Shown piece by piece: positions 19,899 through 32,616 of a DNA stretch of 33,007 nt; the stretch's first letter is position 1; every line of letters begins with the position of its first letter. The notes under the pieces were generated by a model, which worked only from the letters and a program-made list of their open reading frames with translations, had not been told where the DNA came from and did not search any database. The DNA is from Bacteroidia bacterium (lineage in GTDB: Bacteria; Bacteroidota; Bacteroidia; SpSt-205): the NCBI GenBank assembly GCA_025060275.1, contig JANXCJ010000002.1:1-33007 (forward strand), given 5' to 3'. Position numbers and translations under genes: made by a program.

Positions 19899-22266
19899 TT
19901 TGATTTTTTTAGTGTGGGGGTGTTCCGCGAGCCGATTTCTTTCTCCTCAGGATCAATTAGTAGCTCGCGAACCCCTCTTGCGAGGTCATGTGATAGAAGA
20001 GACTCCTCCTCTCTACTTGCGTAGTAATAGTCGTACCTTAGGGATACGCCTGAGGCTGCAGCTGTACTGGGGAGGCGCACTCCTGCGTTACAGTCCTAAG
20101 CCTCCTTGGTACGTCTTTCGGCGTATGCCTAAAATCCGTTATTATACTTATAAGTTAGGTCAGCTTTTGCAAGAAAAATTAGGCGAGCCCCCCATGCTTG
20201 TCTCTCAGAGAGCTCTGGAACGAGATGTCAAGCTCTTAGAAGAGGCTTACCTTAGAGAAGGTTACTTCCAGGTAGCCGTACAAGCGCAAGTGAAGCCACT
20301 AAGTAAGTATGAGGCACAGGTTATATACCGAATTCGCCCGGGGCCTCGTTGGTATATCAGAGAATTGGATATAGAAGGGGAAGACTCTACCTTGGTAAGC
20401 TTAGCAGAGAGTTTTCTTCAAAGGCGGCTCTTACCTGTGAATGAGGCTTATAGTCTCAGGCGATTAGATGCCCTGCGGGAGGAAGTTCATCAAATGCTTC
20501 TATCAGAAGGATATTATAAGCTACCCCTAAGTCAGATTCTCTGGGAAGTAGATACTACTACTGAATTCTCTAATCTGAAGAAGCCGCGAGGGTTTCTGCG
20601 GAGGTGGATAGGAAAGGCGAAAGAGGACGCACCTACTTGCGTGGTGCGCTTGGTCCTTCCCTCAGGTTTTACTCGGTATCAGATGAGTACTACAGAAGTA
20701 GCTGTGCACACGCCTGAGCATCTTCCAACGTTAGAGTCAGTACATGGAAGCATACGCATCCTCACAGAGGGGAGGGCTCTCCGTATTATAGACCCTCGGG
20801 TATTTGTTAGTCGTATTTATTTACCCAGCCAAGGTTACTACGATCAGCGAGCCATTCAAAGCTCTCAGCGAGGATTACAGAGTTTGGAGATTGTTCAGTG
20901 GGTGGCACCTTCTCTGCAAGAGGATAGTGTGCAGTCTTTGCGTACTCGCTATGATATTCTGCTTCGTCCCCCCATAGAAGTTGTATGGAGTGTGGAGGGA
21001 TTTCAATCTACTCAGCCGTTGGTTGGTAGCCTGCCGCTTCCCGGAGCGAGCATGACAGGGCGCTTTTCGCATATTTCGCTTTTTCGGCGTGGTCTATCCT
21101 TTCGCATAAGGGGACAAGCTGCCATTAGCTACTTCCGTCGCCGTCCAGAAGAGCCCCTCTTACCTCTCCATAACTTGGGTGGAGAACTCTCTCTTACTAT
21201 TCCCGAAGGCTCTCTCCAATTGCGCCAGGCTTCTGCTCGCTTGCTTTCCTCTACCATACGAAGTATTACCCATGTGATCACCGCCTCTTATCAAGATATT
21301 CGGCAAGTGGATTTTTCCCGGCGCTATATCAATTTTTCCTGGAGTCGTCAGACTCGCTTTCTATTTCAAGATAAAAGGCAAGAGGAGCAGACTTGGACTC
21401 CGCTGGGCTTGACTTTTGTGGATAGCCGTTTCTCTGACTTTTTCTTAGGTCAGATAGACGCCCTTTCTCCTCAGGTACGCTCGCTCATCCTGAGAGACTA
21501 TCTTCCGCGCTTGACCCAGATAACTGCCTGGCAAGTTTCTTCTAATAGAAACTACTTCTCAGGGGGCGCACGCCGTAGAGGTGACTATTCTTCCCTTTTG
21601 ATAGAGCTGGGGGGGTGGGTTCCTTTCTTCTTAGAGCATTTTCTTGTATTGTCTCGTCCGCAGTGGGATAGTACTTACCAGGATAATATGCTTCTAAACA
21701 GGTTTCGTTACGGAGTCTTTATCAGAGTATTAGCAGAGGGGCGGCTGCGGCTTAGGCTCATCTCTCCTCGTCAGCAGCTTTTTGTGCGGTCTCGAGTGGG
21801 ACTAGCGCAAGGAGGATTTTACACTTTGGATGTGCCTTTTGAGAATCGTTTTTTTGTAGGGGGACCTAATAGCATGCGCGCATGGCAATTTGGCGCATTA
21901 GGCCCTGGGAGATATACCTATACGCAGAATCTTTTCCTTATCCCGGGAGGCACATTTTTGTTAGAGGCAAATGCAGAGATTCGCCAAACACTTTTTAGGG
22001 GTATTCAGCTGGCGCCATTCATAGATGTAGGGAATGTCTGGTTTCTAACAGATACTTACTTTGAAGATGCAAGGGGCATATTCGGAAAAAGCCCCTGGCC
22101 AGGAATCGGACTAGGGATAGGACTAAGATGGGATTTTTCGGTGTTGGTGATCCGCCTGGATGTGGCTCAGCAGGTATTTGATCCTGCTGGTGGGTGGGTG
22201 CTGAGGAACTTTCCCGTAGGCGGCATCCGAAGTCAGTATGTATTTGCGGTAGGATATCCTTTTTGA
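19873..22266 (+). CDS. Omp85-superfamily outer membrane protein with lipoprotein-type signal (TamL/BamA-TamA-like)
   Basis: N-terminus MAWRWSWSSLIFLVWGC has a lipobox-like Cys. POTRA-like segments follow. The C-terminal barrel carries FFVGGPNSMRAWQFGALGPG (the Omp85 FxxGGxxxxRG-type motif) and ends in Phe (GYPF). Confidence 0.75.
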   Translation: MAWRWSWSSLIFLVWGCSASRFLSPQDQLVAREPLLRGHVIEETPPLYLRSNSRTLGIRLRLQLYWGGALLRYSPKPPWYVFRRMPKIRYYTYKLGQLLQEKLGEPPMLVSQRALERDVKLLEEAYLREGYFQVAVQAQVKPLSKYEAQVIYRIRPGPRWYIRELDIEGEDSTLVSLAESFLQRRLLPVNEAYSLRRLDALREEVHQMLLSEGYYKLPLSQILWEVDTTTEFSNLKKPRGFLRRWIGKAKEDAPTCVVRLVLPSGFTRYQMSTTEVAVHTPEHLPTLESVHGSIRILTEGRALRIIDPRVFVSRIYLPSQGYYDQRAIQSSQRGLQSLEIVQWVAPSLQEDSVQSLRTRYDILLRPPIEVVWSVEGFQSTQPLVGSLPLPGASMTGRFSHISLFRRGLSFRIRGQAAISYFRRRPEEPLLPLHNLGGELSLTIPEGSLQLRQASARLLSSTIRSITHVITASYQDIRQVDFSRRYINFSWSRQTRFLFQDKRQEEQTWTPLGLTFVDSRFSDFFLGQIDALSPQVRSLILRDYLPRLTQITAWQVSSNRNYFSGGARRRGDYSSLLIELGGWVPFFLEHFLVLSRPQWDSTYQDNMLLNRFRYGVFIRVLAEGRLRLRLISPRQQLFVRSRVGLAQGGFYTLDVPFENRFFVGGPNSMRAWQFGALGPGRYTYTQNLFLIPGGTFLLEANAEIRQTLFRGIQLAPFIDVGNVWFLTDTYFEDARGIFGKSPWPGIGLGIGLRWDFSVLVIRLDVAQQVFDPAGGWVLRNFPVGGIRSQYVFAVGYPF

Positions 22267-22518: not shown

Positions 22519-25500
22519 TCATCTTAGTAATGTTACAGTGCCTGAGCGGGTAAAAGTAGTGCCATTAGGTAACCTTGCGGTTATTTTATAGGTGTAGGCG
22601 CCCTCAGGACATTCGGCTCCATCCCTTTTGCGTCCGTCCCATATGCGCGTGTTATTCCCTTCAAAGATCAAATTACCCCACCGGTCATACACCCATACCT
22701 CATAGGTAAGATTAGCTCTTATGAGCCAGGTATCATTGATACCGTCTCCATTTGGGGTAAAGACATTCGGAATGAAGATGTCTAACCCCTGCTCAATCGT
22801 AACAGAGCCGCGAGCTGTGTCAGCACACCCTTCTGCATTCTGAGCGACTAAGGTTACAGTGTAAGTTCCTGGCTGAGGGAAATCTACTGGCCCTGGGTTT
22901 TGGGCGGTGGAGGTTTGCCCATTTCCAAAGTCCCAGAAGTAGGAGGTAGCACCTTGGGACTGGTTATTGAAGGTTACTTGGGTGTTAGGTTGTGTCTGAG
23001 TTACTTGTGTAGGGGTAAAAGCCGCGGTAGGACGAGGATGGGCTACGATACTGACCCGAGCTGTATCTCGGCATCCGTCGCTGCTTACCGCCACTAACTC
23101 TAAATTATAATTCCCTGGCTGCGAGTAAGTATGAGTAGGAGCGTTTTGATTGGGAAGGGTGTCTCTTATTCCATCACCCCATACCCAGATATATATTACA
23201 TTCACCGCTCCAGCTGGGTCAGAAGTGTTTTGAGGATTTATAGTAAATGGGACACATCCTCTGGTAATAGGGAGGTCTATTTGAGCATTAGGGCGGCGGT
23301 TTATGGTAACCTGCTGTTGTACAGTGGTACTACATACTCGGTTATGACTCCATGCCGTAAGAGTCACAGTATAGGTGCCTGAGGTTGCATATACATGCTG
23401 GGGTCCGGGTGCCGTGCTTGTGGTACCATCTCCAAAATCCCACTGCCAGCTATATCCATCAGTTCCTATATCTGCAAACTGTACAGGCTGGTTTTCACAA
23501 GCTGCACTGAGAACTGCGATTTGAGGGGAAGGGGTGCGATATATCCGAATGTAGTGCACTTTTTCCACGGGAACCCATGTAGCCCCATAGCGAGCACTAA
23601 GTCTGACAGTGTAGAAACCTACTTGTGTATATGTGTGCTGAATAGGATTCTGGGTAGTATTGAGGATAGGCGTGCCGTCTCCAAAGTCCCACCGATACTC
23701 GTCAGCTGGAGGTGTAGCTGTAAAGGTTACTGTAAGCTGATCACATCCCTCTTGAGTATTGGCGTTGAAGTCAGCCGTGGGTGGGGGGGAAGCAGCGATA
23801 TTTACTACTACAGGACAGGAAGCGGCACATCCATTAGCATCTCTCAGAGTGATAGTGGCATTATAGGTGCCTGCACCTCCATAGTTTGCTGACTCTGTGA
23901 TGGGAAGAGTAGAGGCTTGTCCCGTTAGCGTGAAGTTATTCCCTAAATCAATTTCATAGGTGAAAGGAGGAGTTAGCTGGTTGGCATTAGCTGCATCAAT
24001 ACTGAAGGTAATAGGTGCTCCCAAGTAGCCTTGTAATGGGGAGGAACAGACAAGCTGAGGTTTGGGATAAACGGTGAGCGTAACGGAGTTGGTAGTAGTA
24101 GGTGTATTGCTAATGCAGGGCAGGCTAGAACTTACAATCACTTCGTAGGTATCCCCAGATTGGGGATTGGTTTCAGTATAGTTAGGAGCATTGGGTGCGC
24201 CAAGGAGGGGAGCTCCATTTTTGCGCCAGACAAAGTTAGGGGAAGGACCCAGGTTCCCTCCTACTACTGTAAGAGTTACGGGTTCTCCTTCGCATACAGC
24301 TGGGGGCGAAGCGATAAGTTGAGCACTCATCGTCTGTTGAGGAATAACCTGAATTTGTAGAGAGTCCCAGAGAGACCATCCGCAGCACTGAGAACGAACC
24401 CTTAGATAGACCATGTAAGTGCCAGGTTGGGTTAGGGCAGGGGTAGTGTAGGAAGAAGCGCCAGGAGCGGAAAGGTTAGCCGATATAGGACCTGTAAGTC
24501 TCCAGTGGTACTCTAGGATAGGCCAATTCTCTGGATTTGTAAGATTAGCTTGTAAAAGAGCTGTGCTATTTACGCATATCGGCCCTAGGGTAACTAGTTG
24601 AATATCAGGAATTACCCCTTGGCGCATCGGAGAAGCAAATAGAGTATAACGATAGGGAATGCTATTGACTCGCAGGAGGATAGTGTGGAACCCTGTGGTG
24701 GTAAAGAAGGTAGTGGCATTAGGACCGTACCCAAAAATAGGTTGAGCATTACTACCAAATCCCCACTCATACTGTGTGAGCGGGTCTGGGTTTTCTACGG
24801 AGAAGGTTACTTCTGAGTAGCTGCACACGAGCCCCTCTACACGAATGGGAGGCTCTGTGGGAACATAGCTATTGACAAGGGTAGCAGGTTGCCCTGTAAG
24901 ATTTTGATAAAATGGTTGAGCAATACCATCTGCTCCATCGCCTCCCCGTCCGCCTCTACCCCCATTTCCGCCTTTACCTCCATTTCCTCCCCAGCCTCCT
25001 TGACAGCCTGCTCCACAGTTATTAGAAGGAAGTGGAGGAGAGCCGCAAAATCTCTGGCAAGGGGGACCTATCCAGCCACCGCCACATCCTCCTAGTCCAC
25101 CTTGACCTCCCAGTCCGCCAGCCGACCCAGGCGCACCTTCACCTGCTTGCCCCACACTAAGAGGACAATCCCGAATAACTCCATTGGTCCCATTATTCCA
25201 GAGAAAAACAGCGAAGGCGCCTCCGCCGCCCCCACCGCCTTGTCCTCCATGTCCTCCTTCTCCTCCTTCACCGCCACCGCCGCCTCCTCCCCCAGAGCTA
25301 TTAGTATATCCATCGTCTATGCGGATGCATAGTATGTCATAGGGAATGCCCCCCAAGGCACCGCCGCCACCGCCGCCTCCTCCCCCAGAGCCATGTTCGC
25401 CTGGTTGCCCATTTTGTCCGTCTCCGGGGATGAACCACCCTCCTGAAAAGGAGGGAATACCCGGCTGCCCATCATTTCCGTCTCTTCCATTTGCGCCATC

Positions 25501-26439
25501 AGTGCCGTTCTGTCCTCCTCTTAGGGGGTCGTCTGATGGGCATCCTCCTAATGCACCTATGAAGCCAGCTGCATCCCCGAAATTAGCGCATATGTTTTGG
25601 CCTTGTCCTCCGTTACCTCCTAACCCTACAGGTTGTCCTCCGATGGAGGTATTTCCGTTTTGTCCTATGCTTCCTGAGGGAGCCGACGCACCATTACAAA
25701 AATCTAAGTCTAAACATCCGGCTGGGCCGCGTCCTAATCCCATGGGGGCGCCATTGCCTCCGTTCCCACCTGCTTGAGTACCTCCTGACCAGCTACTTCC
25801 ACCTGCTCCGCCGTCATTATTGGGATCATCTACACCAGGCTGACATTGCCTGCATCCATCTTCTCCCCGTGCTCCCGGTGCCCCATCTCGTCCATTCTGT
25901 ACGGGGTCCCCTGGTTTGCCATCCGTTGCATTTCCCGCATGGATTCGGCAGCGTACAATTTGATAATTAGAACATCCATTCAGGTAGAGACCGTATGTTG
26001 AGCAGCCTGGGCCGTCGGCTGTATAGCTAGCATTCTCTACCTCTATATAAAGGTCGTGAAGTTCAAAACCTGACTTGTTTATCGCCTGTACGGCTACGAG
26101 TCTGCAGGGATTTAGTTCAGGGCTACCGCTCAAGCGGCGTAAGCGACTGATTCCGTTATTCCTTTTTATAGGAGAGGTAGGGTTAGATAGGTCAAAACCC
26201 CCTTCCAAGATAATGTTGTCTTCCAGCGAAAGGGGGTTAGTGAGATGGTAATCGCCGATTGCTAAGCGAATGTGTTTTACGGGACCAGCGCCTGCTTGTG
26301 CGATAGCAGCCGAAAGCGAGAGAGGATCAGCTGGGGTACCAGCTGCGCCCGGTGTACCTGTGGGAGATACGTAGAGATACCCACATTGCTGAGAATACAG
26401 CCATGCGCATAATGCCCAAAGACTCAGATATTTATGCAT
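22519..26439 (-). CDS. giant secreted glycine-rich PKD-repeat protein with T9SS type B C-terminal sorting domain (paralog B)
   Basis: 1306 aa with signal peptide MHKYLSLWALCAWLYS-QQ. A conserved N-terminal domain is followed by a roughly 340-aa Gly-rich module and multiple PKD/Ig units (WDFGDG, WDFGNG, WVWGDG). The C-terminus FIPNVFTPNGDGINDTW...DRWGNLIF...WDGR...GAYTYKI...TVTLLR is a gliding-motility-type CTD. Confidence 0.9.
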   Translation of the reverse strand: MHKYLSLWALCAWLYSQQCGYLYVSPTGTPGAAGTPADPLSLSAAIAQAGAGPVKHIRLAIGDYHLTNPLSLEDNIILEGGFDLSNPTSPIKRNNGISRLRRLSGSPELNPCRLVAVQAINKSGFELHDLYIEVENASYTADGPGCSTYGLYLNGCSNYQIVRCRIHAGNATDGKPGDPVQNGRDGAPGARGEDGCRQCQPGVDDPNNDGGAGGSSWSGGTQAGGNGGNGAPMGLGRGPAGCLDLDFCNGASAPSGSIGQNGNTSIGGQPVGLGGNGGQGQNICANFGDAAGFIGALGGCPSDDPLRGGQNGTDGANGRDGNDGQPGIPSFSGGWFIPGDGQNGQPGEHGSGGGGGGGGGALGGIPYDILCIRIDDGYTNSSGGGGGGGGEGGEGGHGGQGGGGGGGAFAVFLWNNGTNGVIRDCPLSVGQAGEGAPGSAGGLGGQGGLGGCGGGWIGPPCQRFCGSPPLPSNNCGAGCQGGWGGNGGKGGNGGRGGRGGDGADGIAQPFYQNLTGQPATLVNSYVPTEPPIRVEGLVCSYSEVTFSVENPDPLTQYEWGFGSNAQPIFGYGPNATTFFTTTGFHTILLRVNSIPYRYTLFASPMRQGVIPDIQLVTLGPICVNSTALLQANLTNPENWPILEYHWRLTGPISANLSAPGASSYTTPALTQPGTYMVYLRVRSQCCGWSLWDSLQIQVIPQQTMSAQLIASPPAVCEGEPVTLTVVGGNLGPSPNFVWRKNGAPLLGAPNAPNYTETNPQSGDTYEVIVSSSLPCISNTPTTTNSVTLTVYPKPQLVCSSPLQGYLGAPITFSIDAANANQLTPPFTYEIDLGNNFTLTGQASTLPITESANYGGAGTYNATITLRDANGCAASCPVVVNIAASPPPTADFNANTQEGCDQLTVTFTATPPADEYRWDFGDGTPILNTTQNPIQHTYTQVGFYTVRLSARYGATWVPVEKVHYIRIYRTPSPQIAVLSAACENQPVQFADIGTDGYSWQWDFGDGTTSTAPGPQHVYATSGTYTVTLTAWSHNRVCSTTVQQQVTINRRPNAQIDLPITRGCVPFTINPQNTSDPAGAVNVIYIWVWGDGIRDTLPNQNAPTHTYSQPGNYNLELVAVSSDGCRDTARVSIVAHPRPTAAFTPTQVTQTQPNTQVTFNNQSQGATSYFWDFGNGQTSTAQNPGPVDFPQPGTYTVTLVAQNAEGCADTARGSVTIEQGLDIFIPNVFTPNGDGINDTWLIRANLTYEVWVYDRWGNLIFEGNNTRIWDGRKRDGAECPEGAYTYKITARLPNGTTFTRSGTVTLLR
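22522..22788 (-). other. region encoding a T9SS type B CTD (gliding motility-associated C-terminal domain, TIGR04131-like)
   Basis: PNVFTPNGDGINDTW, YDRWGN, WDG and GxYxY motifs in the order typical of the family. Confidence 0.85.
22789..24924 (-). repeat. array of PKD / Ig-like domains in paralog B (about seven units)
   Basis: Recurrent units of roughly 80-90 aa carry W-x-FGDG-type cores followed by H.Y...G.Y.V.L. One unit is an Ig-like domain, VCEGEPVTLTV...TLTVYPKP. Confidence 0.75.
24925..25940 (-). other. glycine-rich module of paralog B (collagen-like GXY runs, Gly9/Gly8/Gly7 tracts, conserved Cys)
   Basis: Seven GXY triplets (GQNGTDGANGRDGNDGQPGIP). Also HGSGGGGGGGGGALGG and GGGGGGGGEGGEGGHGGQGGGGGGGAFAVFLWNNG. 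The C-rich plus strand gives a stop-free antisense Pro-rich ORF. Confidence 0.8.
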
Positions 26440-26442
26440 AAC

Positions 26443-29400
26443 TTAGTTCGTTTTATAAACTTTTATTGTCCATGAACCAACTCGTAGAAAATAGATGCCT
26501 GCAGCAAGCTCAGAACCTATGAACTTGTGAATTCCCTGAGGAAGTTCTCCTTGCCACATTAATCTCCCATAGCCGTCATGAAGAGCTAAGTGATAGGTAC
26601 GGGGTAAAAGTATATAAAGCACCTCTGTAAAAGGATTAGGTCCTATGCGAATACCTTCTTGGCTAAATTCGTCTAAGGCAGAGGGGTTAGGCAGCTTAAT
26701 GACGGCATCTGGCTTGGTTAGGGTATCGTAGCAGCCGTAAAGATTGGAAACGATAAGGGTAACTGTGTATCGTCCTGGATTAGTATAGTAATATTCAGGA
26801 TTGGGTAGGTTAGAGGAGGCGTTGGGGTTGTTTGGGTCTCCAAAGAGCCATAACCAGCTTGTAGCCCCTTGGGCTTGCGAGACAAAGTAGGCGGTATCTG
26901 CCTCATATAAAATTGGTGGGAATACCGAAAAATCTGCTATGGGAGTGGGATAGACTATAACTTGTCGCTGCATAGTTGCAGTATCATTCCCACTTGCAGA
27001 AAGAGCATACAGCGTTACTGTATATTCTCCAGAAAAGGTATAAGTGTGAGTAGGGTCGGTCTGAGTGCTGCGGGGGCTCCCATCTCCGAAGTCCCAAATG
27101 TAAGCACTTGCATATGTGCTCTGGTTAGTGAAGCTCACTGTGAGGGGTGGACAACCTTGAAGGGGTGTTGCTGTGAAGTTGGCAAGGGGAAGGTGGCGGA
27201 TGACTAATGTGGTTTCACAGGCTGCGGTATTGCTGCTGATGCATCCCCTTGCATCTATGACTGTCAGGCGGAGTTGATAGGTGCCTGCGTTTGGGTAGAG
27301 GATTGTGACGGGATTGCCTGTTGCTCCTCTTCCGTCTCCTAAATCCCAATAATAGGTGTATGGAGGGGTACCGCCTATCGCAGTAGCAGAGAGGGTTATG
27401 AGTCCTCCTGGCACGAGGTTACCCGAGATGTTAAAGCACCCGACGGCTAAGGGCTGGATTTGTGGGCGAGGATGTACTGTAAGGGTTATGAGGTTGGAGG
27501 ATATAGGCTGTCCTCGTACGCAAGGAGTATTACCGATTGCGATAGCTTGAATTTGATCGCCTGCCTGAGGGTTTGTGTGAGTGAATAGAGTTCCCGTGCC
27601 TACAGGTGTATTACCTACATACCAAGTAATGGTAGGATTAGGCGCAAAGTATTGAAGCTGTGCTATAAAGGTGATAGGAGATCCTTCGCAAACTTCGTTG
27701 GAGCCATTTAGGGGCTGAATGGATAGAGTGGGAGCGGGAATAGAAAGAACGGTGAGAGTGTCTCTATAGGGGTCCGACCACCCACAGCAGGGAGAATAGG
27801 TTTGATGCTGTATCACGTAGGTACCGGGAGTATTGAAGGTAAGTTGGACGCTTTGTTGAGTGGGCCCTGAAATAGGAGGATGAGCTCCTCCAAAATCCCA
27901 CGAGTAGTCCTGAGCATTAGATAGGCTGCTTGTAAAAGTAACCTGCCCTCCCAAGCAGATTGTATCTTGGGTTTGGGTAAAAGTAGGATTAGTACTGCTT
28001 CCATCATCATGGATATCTAAATATTCATAGTAAGTGTAAGTCTGCCCATTAGCTATGAGAGAGAGACTTTTGCGTCCCATGGTTGTATAGCGGGTAGTTA
28101 CGGTATCACCTATGGCGGTGGGAGGGGTACTTCCTGGTCCGAAAAACCACACAAGGTACCCTGTAGCATCCGTCCAGAGGCGAACGGTGCGTTCGGTACA
28201 TCCTGTATAGCGTATGTATATTTTAGGTTCGTCGGGGAGGCGAAAAGTTGCCTGTGTAGGAGCTATACTGCTGGGAGAGATGTAGATGTCTTGTGCTAAA
28301 CCCGAGACGCCTGGACCTCCATTTCCTCCATTACCTCCATTTCCACCTGCGCCTCCATTTCCACCGTAGCCGATGTCGCAAGCATTGGGTTGTCCTGAAC
28401 ACCCACGAGCTCCACCACATCCACCTGCACCGCCTATACCGCCTATGCCGCCAAGACCGCCGGGGGCCCCTGCACCCGGTAAGCTGGATTCAGCCGTAAC
28501 ATCTACTAAAAGGGCATTCGGCCCATTGTCCCATAGATATGTACCGAAAGAGCCTCCGCCGCCTCCACCGCCTTGTCCTCCTTTGCCACCCTCACCACCT
28601 TCACCACCGCCGCCTCCTCCTGCCCCAGCACCATTTGTGTTAGATGGAAAGCAAATAAGGTTACCCTGGCTTCCACCACCGCCGCCTCCCCCTCCGCCTG
28701 AGCCATGTTGTCCATCTTCTCCATTTTGCCCATCACCTGGACGGAAAAATCCCGCTGTGTGTGATGGTACTCCGGGCGCACCCATTGCCCCCGGCGCTCC
28801 ATTTTGACCAGGTTCTCCATCAGCTCCGTTCTGTCCAGGAAAGTTGTCACATCCTAAAGAGATAAGAGTAGAGTTACCTGTACCTCCTGCGCCACCATTT
28901 CCACCAGCGGGGGCGAAAGGCTGAGCAGAAGTAGGGTTTCCTGCACTGCCGGGGGCTCCTGTGAAGGCTTGCCCTCCTGGTCCACATGTGCCCCTTTGAC
29001 CTCCATCTCCCCCTCTCCCGCCTGCCACGAGGCCTCCAGACCAACTACTTCCACCACTGCCCCCACTTCTGCAGCAGCCGCCATCTTCATCTCCCTGCTC
29101 TCCAATTTGACCAGCTGCGCCGTTACGGCCTGCTGCCCCGTTAGCTCCGGGGGCTCCATCTGCACCGGCGCCTGCATAAAAGCTGCAACGATTAATTACA
29201 TAATTACTACATCCATTTAGATATAGGGCGTAAGTAGTAGTCCCTGCGCCAAGGGCTGTAGCATCCTCCACATAAACCTCTAAATCCTGAATTCGGAAGC
29301 CTGTTACACTAATACCTTCTATGGCTACCAGACGGTTTGGGTTGGATTGAGGATTCACAGCAGCGCGTAAAATAATAGTAGGATAAAGATTGGTCTTTAG

Positions 29401-29667
29401 CCACCCTTGACTGGGATCAAATCCCCCTTCTAACTCTAAATCGTTATGCAGAGGAAGAGGATGATTCAAGGTGTAAATGCCATAGCTGAGGTAGATTCTG
29501 CGAATTGTAGGAGTGAGAAGGTTTGTGACTGCATAGTTGAGTTCAGCAGGATTTGATCGGGTGCCTACCCCTGGACCTGTTGTACCATTTGGAGACACGA
29601 AGATAATGTCGCATTCTTGTGCCCACAGGAAGCCTAATCCTATTAGCCCCCGGAGAAAAAAGTGCAT
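26443..29667 (-). CDS. giant secreted glycine-rich PKD-repeat protein with T9SS type A C-terminal sorting domain (paralog A)
   Basis: Signal peptide MHFFLRGLIGLGFLWA-QE. The N-terminal domain and Gly-rich module are colinear with paralog B, followed by PKD/Ig units (WDFGDG, WDLGDG). The C-terminus is GPNPFTEVLYILLP...AAGIYFLRVGSWTIKVYKTN. I chose ATG 29667 (a -7 box lies 4 nt upstream); the ORF track opens at TTG 29682. Confidence 0.9.
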   Translation of the reverse strand: MHFFLRGLIGLGFLWAQECDIIFVSPNGTTGPGVGTRSNPAELNYAVTNLLTPTIRRIYLSYGIYTLNHPLPLHNDLELEGGFDPSQGWLKTNLYPTIILRAAVNPQSNPNRLVAIEGISVTGFRIQDLEVYVEDATALGAGTTTYALYLNGCSNYVINRCSFYAGAGADGAPGANGAAGRNGAAGQIGEQGDEDGGCCRSGGSGGSSWSGGLVAGGRGGDGGQRGTCGPGGQAFTGAPGSAGNPTSAQPFAPAGGNGGAGGTGNSTLISLGCDNFPGQNGADGEPGQNGAPGAMGAPGVPSHTAGFFRPGDGQNGEDGQHGSGGGGGGGGGSQGNLICFPSNTNGAGAGGGGGGEGGEGGKGGQGGGGGGGSFGTYLWDNGPNALLVDVTAESSLPGAGAPGGLGGIGGIGGAGGCGGARGCSGQPNACDIGYGGNGGAGGNGGNGGNGGPGVSGLAQDIYISPSSIAPTQATFRLPDEPKIYIRYTGCTERTVRLWTDATGYLVWFFGPGSTPPTAIGDTVTTRYTTMGRKSLSLIANGQTYTYYEYLDIHDDGSSTNPTFTQTQDTICLGGQVTFTSSLSNAQDYSWDFGGAHPPISGPTQQSVQLTFNTPGTYVIQHQTYSPCCGWSDPYRDTLTVLSIPAPTLSIQPLNGSNEVCEGSPITFIAQLQYFAPNPTITWYVGNTPVGTGTLFTHTNPQAGDQIQAIAIGNTPCVRGQPISSNLITLTVHPRPQIQPLAVGCFNISGNLVPGGLITLSATAIGGTPPYTYYWDLGDGRGATGNPVTILYPNAGTYQLRLTVIDARGCISSNTAACETTLVIRHLPLANFTATPLQGCPPLTVSFTNQSTYASAYIWDFGDGSPRSTQTDPTHTYTFSGEYTVTLYALSASGNDTATMQRQVIVYPTPIADFSVFPPILYEADTAYFVSQAQGATSWLWLFGDPNNPNASSNLPNPEYYYTNPGRYTVTLIVSNLYGCYDTLTKPDAVIKLPNPSALDEFSQEGIRIGPNPFTEVLYILLPRTYHLALHDGYGRLMWQGELPQGIHKFIGSELAAGIYFLRVGSWTIKVYKTN
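26446..26658 (-). other. region encoding a T9SS type A CTD (Por secretion tail, TIGR04183-like)
   Basis: The PNPF...GIYFLRV...KV.K pattern within the last roughly 70 aa. Confidence 0.8.
26659..28296 (-). repeat. array of PKD / Ig-like domains in paralog A (about five or six units)
   Basis: YSWDFGG, YYWDLGDG, YIWDFGDG and WLWLFGD cores. One Ig-like unit, VCEGSPITFIA...TLTVHPRP, is colinear with paralog B. A shared CCGWS motif precedes it. Confidence 0.75.
28297..29175 (-). other. glycine-rich module of paralog A
   Basis: Nine consecutive GXY triplets (GADGAPGANGAAGRNGAAGQIGEQGDE) and eight more (GQNGADGEPGQNGAPGAMGAPGVP). Also HGSGGGGGGGGGS and GGGGGGEGGEGGKGGQGGGGGGGSFGTYLWDNG. Confidence 0.8.
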
Positions 29668-29671
29668 AGGG

Positions 29672-29679
29672 CAAATATA
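29672..29679 (-). promoter_or_regulatory. -7 promoter box TATATTTG, 4 nt upstream of ATG 29667 of paralog A
   Basis: Minus strand reads TAATAATTGTATATTTGCCCTATG. The box lies within the 18-nt spacer after the AsmA-like stop codon. Confidence 0.45.
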
Positions 29680-29685
29680 CAATTA

Positions 29686-32616
29686 TTATATAGTGCCTAT
29701 AAGAACGGGATGCGGCTCAGCTAAGCGCAAAAAGAGAAGCCTTCGTACGAGGTATCGCCAGGGGTAGTACCAACGAAGGCCTTTGTGGGACTTCTCCACA
29801 TAGACTAGGAGGAGGCTTCTATCTAAGAATTCCTCTATCTGTTCTTCCAATGCTTCTAATGAAGGGTATCGCTGAGCTTTTCGGGACAGACGTGCTCCCT
29901 GAATACGGTATAAAAAACGATCCATAGGAATGTGATGAAAGCCTGTAACCTGAAGAGCGCCTACTCGTGTCATGAGGAGAGCATCAGTTATTCTCAAGAA
30001 GCCATCTGAAAAACTCAATTCAGGTATTTCTGCTATGAAGTCCAAAGTATCCTTATATGCTGCAAGGTAGTAAGGGCGAAACCAGCGTAGAAAGCGAGGT
30101 GTCCTCAATAAACCATTTCTGATGCATCCTTTTGTCCATATAGAGCTTTGCTCATGCCATTCCACAGTCGGAGTAAAACGCAGGACTGCTTGTGCTTCAC
30201 CCGAAAAAGTGCCTTGAAGACCTACTTGTCTAAGGGTTTCTAGGGTGTCTAAGTGCATATCCCTTAGGAAAGGTGCTAGGGGTACTTCTTTTATGCTCAA
30301 GCGTCCGTTGAGCATGTAGCAAGTAGAGTCCGTGCCGTCCAGGAAGCCTTTACCCTCTGCGATTGCACCTCGGTATCTGAGATTTAGGGTGTCTATCTCA
30401 ATGAGCCCTCGCTGAAGGTGAGCATAAATTTTACCCTCTTCCACTGGGATTCCATATAAATCAACTTCTTGCATTTGAGCTTGTAGATTAAGTTCCATTT
30501 GTCTGGGCAGATACACCCGTCGGCGGACCTGCCCCCCCTCTACATAGCGCCAGAAATTGCTCAGAGCGATTCCGCTGGCTGTCACCAGCAGGTTGCCCCT
30601 GAGATGCTGCCAATCTGTATAGAGATAGCCCAGTGTTCCTTGTAATTGTGCGTTTGCATTGATGTAGGCTTTTCCTATCTGGGCTTCCAAAGTGTCTATG
30701 CAAGTGAGAGAGGGATTATACCAAAGTCGTAAGGAAAGCCTATCTAAGTGAAGTCCTAACTTGGGAAAATAGCCCCTTACATCGGCGAGAGTGGCTTCCC
30801 CTTCTGTAGGATTATCCCAGCGGAATAGGGTATCCCATGCTCCCTCTGCACAGAATCTTGCCCTCAGCCATCCTTGACTCACATATATCCCATAAAGAGG
30901 GAGTACCTGCCATAACCAAGATAGCCCTATGCATGTATTTACTTCTACATTCGCTCCTTCTGGATAAAGAACGCCGTGAAGCGTGGCAAACCCATGTCCG
31001 GGCACCTCAGCCTTCAAATTCCGTAGCCATAAGTGTTTGTCTGATAGGGTTAGCCACCCACTGCCCTGAATCAGTACCTCATTCCATCTTCCCACACCAC
31101 TCACTTCTATTGAATCTCCGAGCCAAGAAACTGTAACATAGCCCTGAGAAGCATTTAGAAATAAATCACCCCTGCGTAGGGGTAGATGGCTATATAACTT
31201 TACATCTGCAGTTTCACGGAGAAAAGGTAACCATAAGCGCCCCTCTCCTATGAGAGCACCTTTGTGCTTTTTCATGGTTATGTGCTCCATCTGGGCTGTA
31301 CCATCCCATACTAACTTTCTACACTGAATACTGATAGATATGTCTTGCTGGTGCCTTTTTGTTAGTAAGGTCTGATAAGGCTGGAAAGCTTCTAAAAGGG
31401 ATGTCAAACGAGTGCTATCCATCTCCAACACTAAGCCTTTTGAAGTATTCCATATGCCCCATATGGCTATTTTGCCGAGTTGAGCCCTTGCCCTCAGGTC
31501 TTCTCTTCCTTCTCTCCATATCCATATAGTGTCTGCATTGCGAATTATAAGCCTAAAGTAACCCTGTTGCTCAGTCCAATGGAAATATCCCTCTATGCTC
31601 CAGGGTAACTTCTCATACTCTCCGCCTCCCCACACAAGAAGAGACTCTGGGGCTCCGCTCATGTACAGCTTTCCTAGTCCATGCCAGCCTATAATGCCGT
31701 TTATGCGGTAAATGCGCGATCCATCTCCATAGAGAGAGAACTCATGGTTACCTTTTGAATGACTTCCTGATATCTTTACATTATAGGTAGAGCCACTGAC
31801 TTTTCCGCGGAGGCTCATACTACCTACTTGGGGAAGGTTAGCCCACATGGATAAAAGGTGGTTAGCCCAAAGAGAATCCAACCGGAGATCAAAATAGCCC
31901 CAGAGGCGTTCCCACCCAGTAATATCACCCGAAAAGATAACTTGATTGTATGCAGAGTATAAGGATAGGGTAATCTCTCTCCAATTGTCCGTCTTTTTCC
32001 AATACGCCCCCTTATCTACACATAAGTTTATAGAGTTTGGTAAAGACTGTTTTTGCCCTTTTATGCATACTTCATTCACCATTAGCGAAGCATGCAGGGA
32101 AGAAAGCTTTATTTGAAGACTCTCTATCTCTAATCTTCCTGAGGCATGAAGTATATGTAAGGCAAGGAATACGCCAGGAGGAAAATTTTCTAGCCATAAT
32201 TCAAGAGAATCTACTTCCATATCTACTTGTTGGGGGGGAGGGTTAGTACGCCGGCGAGGGAAAAAGCGGAAGTTTTTTTGTCCTTTACCGAGTCTTATGA
32301 GGTGCAAACGCATGCCTTGAAATTTGACTCTCTCTATTTTTTCACCCTTTCCGCTGAGAAAAACTTGCCGAATGAGCCCCACCTTTTGTGTGTCTAATAG
32401 AAGAGTGCTTCCTACTCGCACTTCCTTCAGAGAAAGGTACCATCTCTGACTTAAGGGGTTCCAGGAGAAAGCCATTATTTCTCCTATCTCTACTTGAGCT
32501 CCTACTAAATAGGTTAGAATGTGCTCTATCAGGGTATGTCCTAATCTTTCCTTTCCATACCAAACGATTCCACCCACTCCGCTACCCAAAGCCAGGGCTA
32601 CTAAATACTTCCGCAT
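29686..32616 (-). CDS. AsmA/TamB-like large membrane-anchored protein
   Basis: 976 aa with a single N-terminal TM anchor (YLVALALGSGVGGIVWY), followed by a long, beta-rich, motif-poor body as in AsmA-family proteins. The family assignment rests on architecture only and is tentative. Confidence 0.4.
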   Translation of the reverse strand: MRKYLVALALGSGVGGIVWYGKERLGHTLIEHILTYLVGAQVEIGEIMAFSWNPLSQRWYLSLKEVRVGSTLLLDTQKVGLIRQVFLSGKGEKIERVKFQGMRLHLIRLGKGQKNFRFFPRRRTNPPPQQVDMEVDSLELWLENFPPGVFLALHILHASGRLEIESLQIKLSSLHASLMVNEVCIKGQKQSLPNSINLCVDKGAYWKKTDNWREITLSLYSAYNQVIFSGDITGWERLWGYFDLRLDSLWANHLLSMWANLPQVGSMSLRGKVSGSTYNVKISGSHSKGNHEFSLYGDGSRIYRINGIIGWHGLGKLYMSGAPESLLVWGGGEYEKLPWSIEGYFHWTEQQGYFRLIIRNADTIWIWREGREDLRARAQLGKIAIWGIWNTSKGLVLEMDSTRLTSLLEAFQPYQTLLTKRHQQDISISIQCRKLVWDGTAQMEHITMKKHKGALIGEGRLWLPFLRETADVKLYSHLPLRRGDLFLNASQGYVTVSWLGDSIEVSGVGRWNEVLIQGSGWLTLSDKHLWLRNLKAEVPGHGFATLHGVLYPEGANVEVNTCIGLSWLWQVLPLYGIYVSQGWLRARFCAEGAWDTLFRWDNPTEGEATLADVRGYFPKLGLHLDRLSLRLWYNPSLTCIDTLEAQIGKAYINANAQLQGTLGYLYTDWQHLRGNLLVTASGIALSNFWRYVEGGQVRRRVYLPRQMELNLQAQMQEVDLYGIPVEEGKIYAHLQRGLIEIDTLNLRYRGAIAEGKGFLDGTDSTCYMLNGRLSIKEVPLAPFLRDMHLDTLETLRQVGLQGTFSGEAQAVLRFTPTVEWHEQSSIWTKGCIRNGLLRTPRFLRWFRPYYLAAYKDTLDFIAEIPELSFSDGFLRITDALLMTRVGALQVTGFHHIPMDRFLYRIQGARLSRKAQRYPSLEALEEQIEEFLDRSLLLVYVEKSHKGLRWYYPWRYLVRRLLFLRLAEPHPVLIGTI

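What the first reader, a model, noticed from the sequence alone, without database searches (positions are those of the whole stretch)
28297..29175. Conserved, ordered glycine-rich module shared by two giant T9SS proteins (also 24925..25940): possible undescribed polyglycine/collagen-like fold
Both paralogs carry a module of about 300-340 aa in which, by eye, roughly half the residues are Gly. The module is not random low complexity, because the same landmarks occur in the same order in both proteins:
- a GXY triplet run (9 triplets in A)
- GGSSWSGG
- a Cys-containing segment
- a second GXY run ending PG[IV]PS (8 triplets in A, 7 in B)
- F.PGDGQNG..G.HGSG followed by nine Gly
- a short hydrophobic Cys segment
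- GGGGGGEGGEGG[KH]GGQGGGGGGG[SA]F..[YF]LW[DN]NG
- a final GGxGG / Cys-rich stretch
The Gly codons are heterogeneous, so this is selected protein sequence rather than a slippage-prone DNA repeat.
The GXY runs are too short for classical long collagen triple helices. Interspersed Gly tracts and beta-strand-like hydrophobic islands are more reminiscent of polyglycine-II helix bundles or glycine-lined beta-helices. I do not recognise this module as a named domain.
Basis: partly seen in the sequence, partly recalled or inferred. Interest (0 to 1): 0.7.

Follow-up and report, generated by a model that had tools for sequence, protein, structure and literature searches.

The report
Undescribed ordered glycine-rich surface-protein domain
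Two neighbouring secreted surface proteins share a position-by-position conserved, 37-40% glycine segment that is part of a large, unnamed protein family and is confidently predicted to be rigid rather than floppy, most likely built from polyglycine-II-type helices, a rare way of folding a protein.

Summary
Glycine is 37-40%, not about half.

The stretch is not an independent module. It is the C-terminal two-thirds of one conserved N-terminal unit of about 450-500 aa, which starts with a short pectate-lyase-like beta-helix.

A module-only profile finds 5032 protein clusters. In 120 aligned members, eight Gly-rich segments keep almost fixed lengths (22-27 aa) and period-3 Gly columns that are mostly at least 90% conserved. 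The Cys-bearing loops between them vary several-fold in length.

No Pfam, NCBIfam, PHROG or PDB sequence family covers the stretch. Two AlphaFold2 runs give mean pLDDT 84-85, with the Gly segments mostly above 90 and assigned neither helix nor strand.

With the module alone, Foldseek returns only polyglycine-II proteins (ALK, a springtail antifreeze). All three hits are non-significant, with TM below 0.1.

My reading: a new family of glycine-rich PPII/PGII helix assembly grafted on a beta-helix. It probably forms the rigid distal head of type IX secretion system (T9SS) surface proteins and presents variable loops for binding. I could not inspect the fold geometry, and the function is inferred.

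The parts
26443..29682 (-). Protein B, 1079 aa. It probably starts at Met6 (ATG at 29667). Order of parts: signal peptide, N-terminal head unit, PKD/Ig stalk, likely type-A T9SS C-terminal domain.
   Evidence: ORF. PKD_4 E = 7e-42, and Por_Secre_tail TIGR04183 scores 18.9 bits, below its cutoff of 23. The L009 ortholog is 62% identical and aligns from Met6.
29176..29613 (-). B residues 24-169: beta-helix-like first part of the head unit. It contains the YVSPxG...GTxxxP cap, GxY, EGGF and the STYxLYLNGCSNY rung.
   Evidence: Aligned to A 20-168, which is modelled as beta strands at pLDDT 90-98. Weak Foldseek matches to right-handed beta-helix enzymes. Weak PelX and PF12708 matches.
28297..29175 (-). 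B residues 170-462: the Gly-rich part as reported. It holds eight Gly-rich segments, variable loops and small beta islands.
   Evidence: 39.9% Gly. Landmarks confirmed. AF2 of B 158-478 alone gives mean pLDDT 84.9 and pTM 0.76.
29086..29166 (-). B residues 173-199: first GXY run (9 triplets), segment P1.
   Evidence: In the family, Gly falls every third residue, and the segment has median length 27 with sd 1.7.
28762..28836 (-). B residues 283-307: second GXY run (8 triplets) ending PGVPS, segment P4.
   Evidence: Family median length 22, sd 1.5.
28552..28737 (-). B residues 316-377: segment P5 (GDGQNG..HGSG plus nine Gly), variable Cys loop L4, and segment P6 (poly-Gly then GGE/GGK/GGQ repeats).
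   Evidence: P5 length is 24 with sd 0.4, P6 is 26, and L4 ranges 5-23 aa. The pLDDT blocks covering P5 and P6 are mostly 89-97.
28480..28551 (-). B residues 378-401: SFGTYLWDNG...LLVDVTAE, a beta-helix-type rung embedded between Gly-rich segments.
   Evidence: DSSP strands at 378-383, 391-393 and 396-398 in the B model, and at the equivalent 408-414, 421-423 and 427-429 in the A model. S and F are 87% and 78% conserved.
28303..28479 (-). B residues 402-460: GGX segment P7, Cys-rich variable loop L5, GGX segment P8.
   Evidence: P7 length is 23 with sd 0.1, P8 is 22, and L5 ranges 8-29 aa. The GG.GG.GG columns are at least 90% Gly.
22519..26439 (-). Protein A, 1306 aa. Order of parts: signal peptide, N-terminal head unit, PKD/Ig stalk, type-B T9SS C-terminal domain.
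   Evidence: ORF. PKD_4 E = 2e-56. CHU_C E = 6e-17. TIGR04131 scores 48.2 bits against a cutoff of 35.
25936..26382 (-). A residues 20-168: beta-helix-like first part of the head unit.
   Evidence: AF2 strands at pLDDT 90-98. Foldseek beta-helix matches span about 200 columns.
24925..25935 (-). A residues 169-505: the Gly-rich part of the paralog.
   Evidence: 37% Gly. Landmarks confirmed. The pLDDT blocks over residues 311-360, 381-450 and 481-520 are 89-98, with almost no DSSP helix or strand outside the beta islands.

Best explanation
**What it is.** The glycine-rich stretch is the second part of one conserved folded unit of about 450-500 aa at the mature N-terminus of both proteins.

**Anatomy.** The unit starts as a short right-handed, pectate-lyase-like beta-helix (about 150 aa). 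It continues as eight glycine-rich segments of fixed length (22-27 aa). These segments fall into three types:
- GXY (one Gly per triplet)
- GGX (two Gly per triplet)
- pure poly-Gly

They are interleaved with a few beta-helix-type strands and with loops of very variable length, several of which carry Cys.

**How it probably folds.** I infer that the Gly-rich segments fold as polyproline-II/polyglycine-II helices that pack directly backbone to backbone. By the logic of the Crick-Rich polyglycine-II lattice, poly-Gly segments would sit inside the assembly, GGX segments at intermediate positions and GXY segments at the edge. The result would be a rigid, densely hydrogen-bonded body on the end of the beta-helix.

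**What it probably does.** The T9SS sorting domain that anchors the protein is at the C-terminus, behind a stalk of PKD/Ig domains. This unit would therefore be the distal head of a cell-surface fibre. Its likely role is a stiff scaffold that presents the variable, disulfide-stapled loops for binding, the same logic as the conserved Gly motifs and hypervariable loops of phage gp38 adhesins. I see no sign of an enzyme.

**Shown:** conservation, family size, absence of a named family, confident ordered prediction, and domain order. **Inferred:** PGII geometry and packing, surface exposure, and the binding role.
For: **One unit.** Homologs align over A residues 10-510 as a single stretch. With a module-only profile, almost all of the 150 best hits match from residue 145 or later. 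The few earlier starts (for example residues 3 and 54) could be truncated proteins.

**Family size.** 1713 proteins at E <= 1e-5 in a word-indexed search. 5032 clusters at E <= 1e-3, and 2612 at 1e-10, in the exhaustive search.

**Position-specific conservation.**
- 37 invariant columns among 20 diverse members.
- Period-3 Gly columns mostly at least 90% conserved in 120 members.
- Segment lengths of 27, 26, 22, 24, 26, 23 and 22 aa with sd 0.1-2.0. The loops range 5-32, 28-86, 5-23 and 8-29 aa.

**Selection on protein.** 60% of conserved Gly positions differ in codon between the two paralogs.

**Order.**
- AF2 of A 1-520 gives mean pLDDT 83.9 and pTM 0.71, with 312 residues at 90 or above.
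- An independent AF2 run on B 158-478 gives 84.9 and 0.76.
- In both, the Gly segments are mostly above 90 with DSSP 'other', the low-confidence stretches coincide with the variable loops, and the beta islands fall at equivalent positions.

**PGII likeness.** With the module alone, the only PDB matches at E <= 10 are two ALK glycine-rich-domain entries and the nine-PPII-helix Granisotoma antifreeze. BFVD returns phage glycine-rich, gp38-like and PGRS-named proteins.

**Beta-helix head.**
- Foldseek finds PL9 rhamnogalacturonan lyase, carrageenase, AlgE and tailspikes.
- PF12708 matches 1 of 20 members at E = 2e-4.
- PelX matches 3 of 20 members, best E = 0.0027.

**Not an enzyme.** No acidic or basic residue exceeds 51% conservation.

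**Surface-fibre context.** PKD repeats plus CHU_C or Por_Secre_tail. One relative carries 14 SprB repeats.
Against: - All Foldseek matches for the module are non-significant (E = 7-9, TM 0.06-0.09). They may owe much to glycine composition, because the score uses amino acids as well as 3Di states.
- I could not read model coordinates. Phi/psi angles, helix lengths, packing and the position of the loops are therefore not verified.
- AlphaFold2 could be over-confident on glycine repeats, and only 20 sequences were in each alignment.
- The 22-27 aa segment length equals one coil of a beta-helix. A solenoid of Gly-rich coils is therefore as compatible with the sequence data as an antiparallel PGII bundle.
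- No experiment, conserved operon or ligand supports a binding role. The neighbourhood is conserved only among close relatives.
- Some members lack any T9SS signal.
Confidence: 0.55

Rival explanations
1. The whole unit is one continuous solenoid. After the beta-helix rungs, each 22-27-aa Gly-rich segment makes one coil of the same helix, a 'glycine-lined' beta-helix or PGII solenoid. The variable loops protrude from the corners, as the T3 loops do in pectate lyases. There would be no separate antiparallel PGII bundle.
For: - Gly-rich segment lengths (22-27 aa, sd 0.1-2) match the embedded beta rung (24 aa) and typical beta-helix coil lengths.
- Beta islands recur between the Gly segments in both models.
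- Distant members add further 'GGSYGIYTWN'-type rungs after more Gly-rich coils.
- The 4.8 Å spacing of a PGII lattice equals beta-strand spacing (own knowledge).
Against: - Beta-helix hits cover only about 200 alignment columns of the 520-aa model.
- The module-only model gives no beta-helix hit at all.
- DSSP finds no strand ladders in the Gly segments.
- Period-3 Gly conservation does not fit the in/out period 2 of beta strands.
Confidence: 0.25
2. The GXY runs form collagen-like triple helices in a homotrimer, so the Gly-rich region is an oligomerisation stalk.
For: - Conserved GXY runs of 5-9 triplets carry Pro, Ala and charged residues at X and Y.
- A few distant members start with a domain named PTL_trimer.
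- Many beta-helix tailspikes are trimers (own knowledge).
- Weak collagen chains appear in the profile-versus-PDB noise, E = 0.06-9.
Against: - The Pfam Collagen model gives no hit even at E <= 10.
- The runs are short and are separated, within one chain, by folded segments.
- Most of the region is GGX or poly-Gly, not GXY.
- The monomer models place both GXY runs at pLDDT of about 93-98 without partner chains.
Confidence: 0.07
3. The region is a flexible, low-complexity, elastomeric or disordered glycine linker. The high pLDDT would be an AlphaFold artefact.
For: - Composition alone: 37-40% Gly with runs of nine Gly.
- BLASTP with composition adjustment aligns only 120 aa between the paralogs.
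- HMMER bias filters mask much of the signal.
Against: - Column-by-column conservation and near-invariant segment lengths across 120 members and thousands of clusters.
- Synonymous divergence at conserved Gly codons.
- Embedded conserved hydrophobic rungs.
- Two concordant confident models.
Confidence: 0.05
4. The unit is a polysaccharide lyase or hydrolase of the pectate-lyase superfamily, and the Gly-rich part is only a decorated extension.
For: The best structural and profile similarities of the first 170 aa are to the following, none of them at a significant level:
- PL9 rhamnogalacturonan lyase, GH82, GH136, AlgE epimerases and tailspike depolymerases
- PF12708
- PelX
Against: - These matches are all far below family cutoffs and cover mainly the N-terminal cap.
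- No Asp, Glu, Lys, Arg or His column exceeds 51% conservation in 120 members.
- Only about three rungs of ordinary beta-helix exist before the Gly-rich part.
Confidence: 0.08

Closest known systems
ALK/LTK glycine-rich domain (PDB 7NX3, 7N00; Pfam PF12810)
   Same: - Long poly-Gly runs followed directly by a hydrophobic beta strand.
- An ordered multi-helix PGII lattice attached to a beta-rich subdomain.
- Extracellular location.
- Two of the only three PDB matches to the module model are ALK entries.
   Different: - No sequence relationship: ALK/LTK does not appear in the profile search of PDB sequences, and there is no Pfam hit.
- TM-score is 0.07-0.09.
- The partner subdomain in ALK is a TNF-like sandwich, not a beta-helix.
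- ALK is a eukaryotic receptor, not a bacterial surface fibre.
Phage gp38 adhesin tip (Salmonella phage S16, PDB 6F45) and related mycobacteriophage tail Gly-rich domains
   Same: - Conserved glycine-rich motifs form a PGII scaffold, and hypervariable loops between them do the binding (PMC13243192, PMC12892980).
- The domain sits at the distal tip of a fibre.
- gp38-like and minor-tail proteins appear among the weak BFVD matches.
   Different: - No PHROG or Pfam match.
- TM-score is about 0.08.
- gp38 is much smaller and has no beta-helix.
- Loop placement at one end is not verified here.
Springtail antifreeze proteins (sfAFP 2PNE/3BOG; Granisotoma 7JJV)
   Same: - Period-3 Gly repeats.
- Disulfide-stapled bundles of PPII helices.
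- 7JJV is one of the three PDB matches.
   Different: - The antifreeze proteins are 80-130 aa, with two layers and no poly-Gly core.
- They bind ice, whereas the closest relatives here carry hot-spring-style MAG names (KatS3mg, SKW, SKYB). That origin is my reading of the names.
- There is no homology.
Mycobacterial PE_PGRS PGRS domains (AlphaFold-predicted PGII sandwich; PMC9436101, PMC10216338)
   Same: - Bacterial, surface-exposed, GGX-rich, and predicted rather than solved PGII structure.
   Different: - PGRS is a polymorphic array of many near-identical GGAGGX repeats of variable number.
- This unit is single-copy, with ordered unique landmarks, fixed segment lengths and a beta-helix.
- The secretion routes differ (type VII versus type IX or Sec).
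Right-handed parallel beta-helix (pectate-lyase-like) domains, e.g. PL9 rhamnogalacturonan lyase 5OLQ, PelX
   Same: - The first ~150 aa share the N-terminal cap motif and about three rungs.
- The embedded 'SFxVFLxNNGxxGxIxDC' segment looks like a PbH1 rung.
   Different: - Scores are far below family thresholds.
- There are no conserved catalytic residues.
- Two-thirds of the unit is Gly-rich and assigned as non-beta.

Membership tests
Glycine-rich PPII/PGII helical bundle domains (structural class: sfAFP, gp38, ALK/LTK, Obg, acetophenone carboxylase) | Gly at every third residue or more often (GXX, GGX or poly-Gly), conserved in register. | tested here: met
   Period-3 Gly columns are mostly at least 90% conserved in 120 members. 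GXY, GGX and poly-Gly runs are present in both proteins.
Glycine-rich PPII/PGII helical bundle domains (structural class: sfAFP, gp38, ALK/LTK, Obg, acetophenone carboxylase) | Backbone in PPII conformation (phi about -75, psi about +145), with several such helices packed at about 4.8 Å and hydrogen-bonded to each other. | tested here: inconclusive
   The models are confident, and DSSP assigns neither helix nor strand to the Gly segments. The only PDB matches are PGII proteins, but at E = 7-9 and TM below 0.1.
Glycine-rich PPII/PGII helical bundle domains (structural class: sfAFP, gp38, ALK/LTK, Obg, acetophenone carboxylase) | A folded, cooperative domain shown by experiment (CD, NMR or crystal structure). 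| not testable with these tools
   No solved relative by sequence.
ALK_LTK_GRD / phage 'glycine-rich domain' (Pfam PF12810, PF21722) | Sequence match to the family profile. | tested here: not met
   No Pfam family at E <= 10 on either protein's first 520 aa or on the modules. None in 20 diverse members. ALK/LTK chains are absent from the profile search of PDB sequences.
Collagen triple-helix repeat (Pfam PF01391) | A long uninterrupted GXY array that matches the profile and forms a trimeric triple helix. | tested here: not met
   The longest strict GXY run is 9 triplets. There is no PF01391 hit. Trimer state could not be tested.
RTX / beta-roll calcium-binding repeats | Nonapeptide GGxGxDxUx repeats. 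| tested here: not met
   The periodicity is 3 and 6 aa (9 and 18 bp), not 9 aa. There is no conserved Asp and no Pfam hit.
Pectate-lyase-like right-handed beta-helix (PF12708, PF13229, NF041903 PelX) | A profile match above the curated cutoff and a conserved catalytic Asp/Arg/Lys constellation. | tested here: not met
   PF12708 matches 1 of 20 members at E = 2e-4. PelX scores 14 bits against a cutoff of 1490. The Foldseek best hit is E = 6.6e-3 with TM 0.21. There are no conserved charged residues. Fold-level resemblance of the first ~170 aa remains plausible.
T9SS cargo protein | N-terminal signal peptide plus a C-terminal type A (TIGR04183/PF18962) or type B (TIGR04131/PF13585) sorting domain. 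| tested here: met
   Protein A: TIGR04131 scores 48.2 bits (cutoff 35) and CHU_C has E = 6e-17. Protein B: TIGR04183 scores only 18.9 bits (cutoff 23), so it is likely rather than proven. The third paralog passes PF18962 at 28.4 bits. The signal peptide is judged by eye from the hydrophobic N-terminus that ends ...AQ/C.

The most novel reading that the evidence does not exclude
A previously undescribed fold type. A right-handed beta-helix passes without a break into a multilayer polyglycine-II lattice, with poly-Gly helices in the core, GGX around them and GXY at the edge. It would be built from unusually long, length-invariant Gly segments. This unit would be the first widespread family of PGII-based domains on bacterial cell surfaces (thousands of clusters, several phyla, including apparently hot-spring lineages). 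It would be a naturally very stable scaffold for displaying variable binding loops.
Probability: 0.35. Interest if true: 0.75.

Novelty: new variant of a known kind. Interest (0 to 1): 0.6.

Why it matters
Only a handful of natural glycine-rich PPII/PGII helix assemblies are known: springtail antifreezes, Obg, acetophenone carboxylase, phage gp38 and Bxb1 tail parts, and ALK/LTK. The mycobacterial PGRS domains are a predicted addition (bioRxiv 10.1101/2023.11.25.568672; PMC13243192).

These assemblies interest structural biologists and protein designers because they are a third way, besides alpha and beta, to build a compact protein.

A family with more than 5000 clusters would greatly enlarge this class if the prediction holds. 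Its features are fixed-length GXY, GGX and poly-Gly segments, a beta-helix partner, and members in MAGs whose names suggest hot-spring origin. It would also offer sequence rules for which Gly pattern sits where.

It would give thousands of bacterial surface proteins, now labelled only 'hypothetical' or 'T9SS sorting domain-containing', a recognisable head domain. That would include relatives that carry SprB repeats.

It is also a warning that 40% glycine does not mean disorder.

Tried and rejected
- **Family libraries.** Pfam, NCBIfam and PHROGs scans of both proteins, of the modules alone and of 20 diverse members found nothing on the Gly-rich part.
- **PDB by sequence.** Single-sequence and profile searches returned only GGS linkers, collagen chains and other composition noise.
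- **PF26696.** This family, seen on a few relatives, is absent from the local Pfam copy. It turned out to be 'PTL_trimer'. From the sequences it appears to be an N-terminal domain upstream of the unit, so it is not a name for the module.
- **DUF7932.** This is the name of the best BFVD match (E = 9e-5, but TM 0.12). No paper mentions it, and no Pfam hit links it to these proteins, so I did not pursue it.
- **Genome scan.** The single-protein scan gave only close relatives, all MAGs labelled Bacteroidia, Bacteroidota or Sphingobacteriaceae/Sphingobacterium.
- **Genomic context as a clue to function.** The order AsmA-like gene, then B, then A is kept in close relatives. The third paralog and distant members sit in unrelated neighbourhoods. 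I rejected an operon-based functional inference.
- **DNA slippage repeat.** Rejected.
- **RTX, collagen and enzyme readings.** Considered and rejected, or down-weighted; see the rival explanations.
- **Literature.** Searches for T9SS with glycine-rich and beta-helix, or for PPII bundles in Bacteroidetes, found nothing relevant.
- **Model coordinates.** I looked for them in the scripting environment and they are not provided.
Full report
**Setting.** The window is an ordinary chromosomal stretch with housekeeping genes: argS, truB, ribF, queA, uppP and others. On the minus strand, three co-oriented genes lie 3 nt apart:
- an AsmA-like gene (29686..32616)
- protein B (26443..29682, 1079 aa)
- protein A (22519..26439, 1306 aa)

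A carries four or more PKD domains and a type-B T9SS sorting domain (CHU_C E = 6e-17; TIGR04131 48 bits, above its cutoff). B carries PKD domains and a sub-threshold type-A sorting domain.

The closest relatives (67-84% identity over the first 520 aa) are all in MAGs labelled Bacteroidia, Bacteroidota or Sphingobacteriaceae/Sphingobacterium. Several have hot-spring-style names (KatS3mg, SKW, SKYB).

**Checking the observation.** The finding covers B residues 170-462 (28297..29175) and A residues 167-505.

All the listed landmarks are present in the same order in both proteins:
- GGSSWSGG
- PG[IV]PS
- F.PGDGQNG..G.HGSG plus nine Gly
- the 33-residue motif GGGGGGEGGEGG[KH]GGQGGGGGGG[SA]F..[YF]LW[DN]NG
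- GXY runs of 9 and 8 triplets in B, and 5 and 7 in A

Glycine is 39.9% in B and 37.2% in A, so 'about half' is too high.

Composition-adjusted BLASTP aligns only a 120-aa core at 58% identity. With HMMER's bias filter off, A 9-512 aligns to B 14-468 at E = 1e-82.

At the DNA level only short 9/18-bp arrays exist. Of 113 aligned Gly-Gly positions, 68 use different codons. Glycine is therefore maintained by selection on the protein.

**It is part of a bigger unit and a big family.** A search with A 1-520 found 68 homologs. A profile of 20 diverse members (alignment A1) found 1713 proteins at E <= 1e-5. A profile of the Gly-rich part alone (alignment A2), run against 1.84 billion cluster representatives, found 5032 at E <= 1e-3, 2612 at 1e-10 and 219 at 1e-30.

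Homologs align from about residue 10-20 to about 505 of A in one piece. Among the 150 best module-only hits, almost all match from residue 145 or later. The few that start earlier (for example residues 3 and 54) could be truncated proteins. The Gly-rich stretch is thus the second part of one unit of about 450-500 aa, not an independent module.

Source names for members include Bacteroidia, Flavobacteriales, Crocinitomicaceae and Chitinophagales. Members also come from Deltaproteobacteria, Anaerolineales and Limnocylindrales MAGs. In some of the non-Bacteroidota members, Cys-rich MopE repeats precede the unit. DUF4215 and PTL_trimer also occur upstream of the unit in individual members, and one member carries 14 SprB repeats plus CHU_C.

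Source annotations say only 'hypothetical protein', 'PKD domain-containing', 'MopE-related' or 'T9SS type A sorting domain-containing'.

**Positional conservation.** Among 20 diverse members, 37 columns are invariant, nearly all Gly.

In 120 members aligned to the profile, the Gly columns form clear period-3 patterns:
- G..G..G (GXY type)
- GG.GG.GG (GGX type)
- solid poly-Gly

Most of these columns are at least 90% conserved.

Eight Gly-rich segments have almost invariant lengths:

| Segment | Median length (aa) | sd |
|---|---|---|
| P1 | 27 | 1.7 |
| P2 | 26 | 1.2 |
| P4 | 22 | 1.5 |
| P5 | 24 | 0.4 |
| P6 | 26 | 1.5 |
| P7 | 23 | 0.1 |
| P8 | 22 | 2.0 |

P3 lies inside the variable L2-L3 stretch and was not measured on its own.

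The intervening loops vary widely in length:

| Loop | Range (aa) |
|---|---|
| L1 | 5-32 |
| L2-L3 | 28-86 |
| L4 | 5-23 |
| L5 | 8-29 |

The loops also have the highest column entropy and hold most of the Cys.

Only two Cys columns reach 70% conservation, and two or three more reach 40-65%.

A 24-aa segment between P6 and P8, 'SF.VFL.NNG..G.I.DC', is conserved and hydrophobic and looks like a parallel beta-helix rung.

**No named family.** Pfam (local copy, newest models 2025), NCBIfam 20.0 and PHROGs give nothing on the Gly-rich part, for the window proteins or for 20 diverse members. Many family members show no precomputed Pfam annotation, or only flanking domains.

Sequence and profile searches of all PDB chains return only linker and collagen noise. 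ALK/LTK does not appear.

- springtail antifreezes
- Obg
- acetophenone carboxylase
- gp38 of phage S16 and Bxb1 tail parts
- ALK/LTK
- predicted PGRS domains

Neither mentions anything like this family (bioRxiv 10.1101/2023.11.25.568672; PMC13243192). Literature searches that combined T9SS or Bacteroidetes with these terms found nothing.

**Predicted structure.** AF2 on A 1-520 with alignment A1 gave mean pLDDT 83.9 and pTM 0.71.
- Residues 21-168 are beta strands at pLDDT 90-98.
- The 10-residue pLDDT blocks over 311-360, 381-450 and 481-520 are 89-98, yet DSSP assigns almost no helix or strand there apart from small beta islands.
- Those islands are at 330-337, 408-414, 421-423, 427-429 and 507-512.
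- Confidence drops below 50 in parts of the variable loops.

An independent run on the B module alone (residues 158-478, alignment A2) gave mean pLDDT 84.9 and pTM 0.76. It shows the same pattern, with beta islands at the equivalent positions.

Ordered, confident and neither alpha nor beta is what PPII/PGII helices look like to DSSP.

Foldseek results:
- The whole A model against the PDB finds only weak matches (best E = 6.6e-3, TM about 0.2, about 200 columns). They are right-handed beta-helix enzymes and tailspikes.
- This agrees with weak PelX and PF12708 similarities of the N-terminal cap.
- The module-only model finds just three chains at E <= 10 out of 350,542. Two are ALK glycine-rich-domain entries and one is the nine-PPII-helix Granisotoma antifreeze. 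All are non-significant, with TM below 0.1.
- Against viral predicted structures, the matches are phage 'glycine-rich domain' proteins, mycobacteriophage minor tail proteins, a gp38-domain protein and a PGRS-named protein, again with TM about 0.1.

I read these matches as local PGII-likeness without any known overall fold. The amino-acid term of the Foldseek score may contribute to them.

I could not obtain coordinates. Dihedral angles, helix lengths and packing remain unverified.

**Mechanistic reading.** Inward-facing positions in packed PPII helices must be Gly, and the helix has three residues per turn. The three sequence types therefore suggest three environments:
- GXY: one contact face, at the edge
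- GGX: two contact faces
- poly-Gly: fully surrounded, in the core

This follows the polyglycine-II lattice and ALK (the logic summarised in bioRxiv 10.1101/2023.11.25.568672). Fixed segment lengths next to free-length loops is the pattern expected for a rigid scaffold that displays variable loops. gp38 follows the same design.

No acidic or basic residue exceeds 51% conservation in 120 members, which argues against an enzyme.

The sorting and anchoring domain is C-terminal, behind PKD/Ig repeats. The unit would therefore sit at the far end of a surface fibre. Relatives with SprB repeats fit an adhesin-type role. These functional steps are inference.

**Alternatives.**
- *Solenoid.* Each Gly-rich segment is about as long as one beta-helix coil (22-27 aa against a 24-aa rung). 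A continuous solenoid with Gly-rich coils is a serious alternative topology that I cannot exclude.
- *Collagen-like trimer.* This is unlikely. There is no PF01391 hit, the GXY runs are short and separated, and the monomer models place them confidently.
- *Disordered linker.* This is contradicted by the conservation data.
- *RTX-type repeats.* These do not fit the period.

What is there is an apparently undescribed, very widespread domain family. It is best explained as a new glycine-rich PPII/PGII-type assembly fused to a beta-helix stub, probably a rigid binding head of secreted surface proteins. I class it as a new variant of a known but rare structural kind. Interest is moderate to high, mainly structural. 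Geometry and function await coordinates and experiments.

Noticed in passing
window 22519..32616 (-); L009 1818..11903; L011 1801..11923: Three co-oriented genes lie 3 nt apart: an AsmA-like 976-aa protein, then B, then A. The same order is kept in related MAGs. The AsmA-like protein is far less conserved (34% identity) than B (62%). A functional link between an AsmA/TamB-like protein and the two T9SS cargo genes is untested.
   Followed up: partly
window 19873..22266 (+): An Omp85-family protein with a POTRA domain is encoded convergently, just downstream of protein A. Together with the AsmA-like gene it brackets the two surface-protein genes, which recalls a TamA/TamB pair.
   Followed up: no
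L011 4765..11923: In MAG KatS3mg025, the orthologs of B and A are each split into two overlapping ORFs. The cause is probably frameshifts or assembly errors in the G-rich DNA, or else pseudogenes.
   Followed up: no
L014 7881..11417 (also L013): The related MAGs hold a third paralog of the head unit (46-48% identity, 1178 aa, Por_Secre_tail 28.4 bits). It sits between a histidine kinase and recG. The family is therefore multi-copy per genome and not tied to one locus.
   Followed up: partly
P0124, P0106, P0125 (L017 282..2186): Some distant members carry PF26696 'PTL_trimer', which judging by the sequences lies at the N-terminus, ahead of the unit. The name hints that at least some family members are trimers.
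   Followed up: partly
L018 6001..13850: In a 5.98-Mb contig, the family member P0111 is followed 12 nt later by an FGE-sulfatase-family gene. Three tandem genes with weak or faint Collagen-repeat hits lie just beyond.
   Followed up: no
window 29667..29682: The listed TTG start of protein B is probably too far upstream. The L009 ortholog aligns from Met6, so the likely start is the ATG at 29667. The mature N-termini across the family follow a '...AQ/C' pattern, consistent with signal peptidase I cleavage before Gln in Bacteroidota.
   Followed up: partly
window 25346..25777 (+) and 28373..28807 (+); 25001..26000 and 28001..29000: The plus-strand ORFs of 143-144 aa are antisense shadows of the Gly-codon runs. 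In the same two 1-kb windows, G+C rises to 0.55-0.56 against 0.44-0.50 elsewhere, and GC skew turns negative.
   Followed up: yes
P0174 (2601 aa), P0189 (4813 aa), P0235 (5035 aa): The unit also occurs inside much larger proteins. P0174 has 14 SprB repeats and a CHU_C sorting domain, which links the family to proteins resembling the SprB gliding-motility adhesin.
   Followed up: partly
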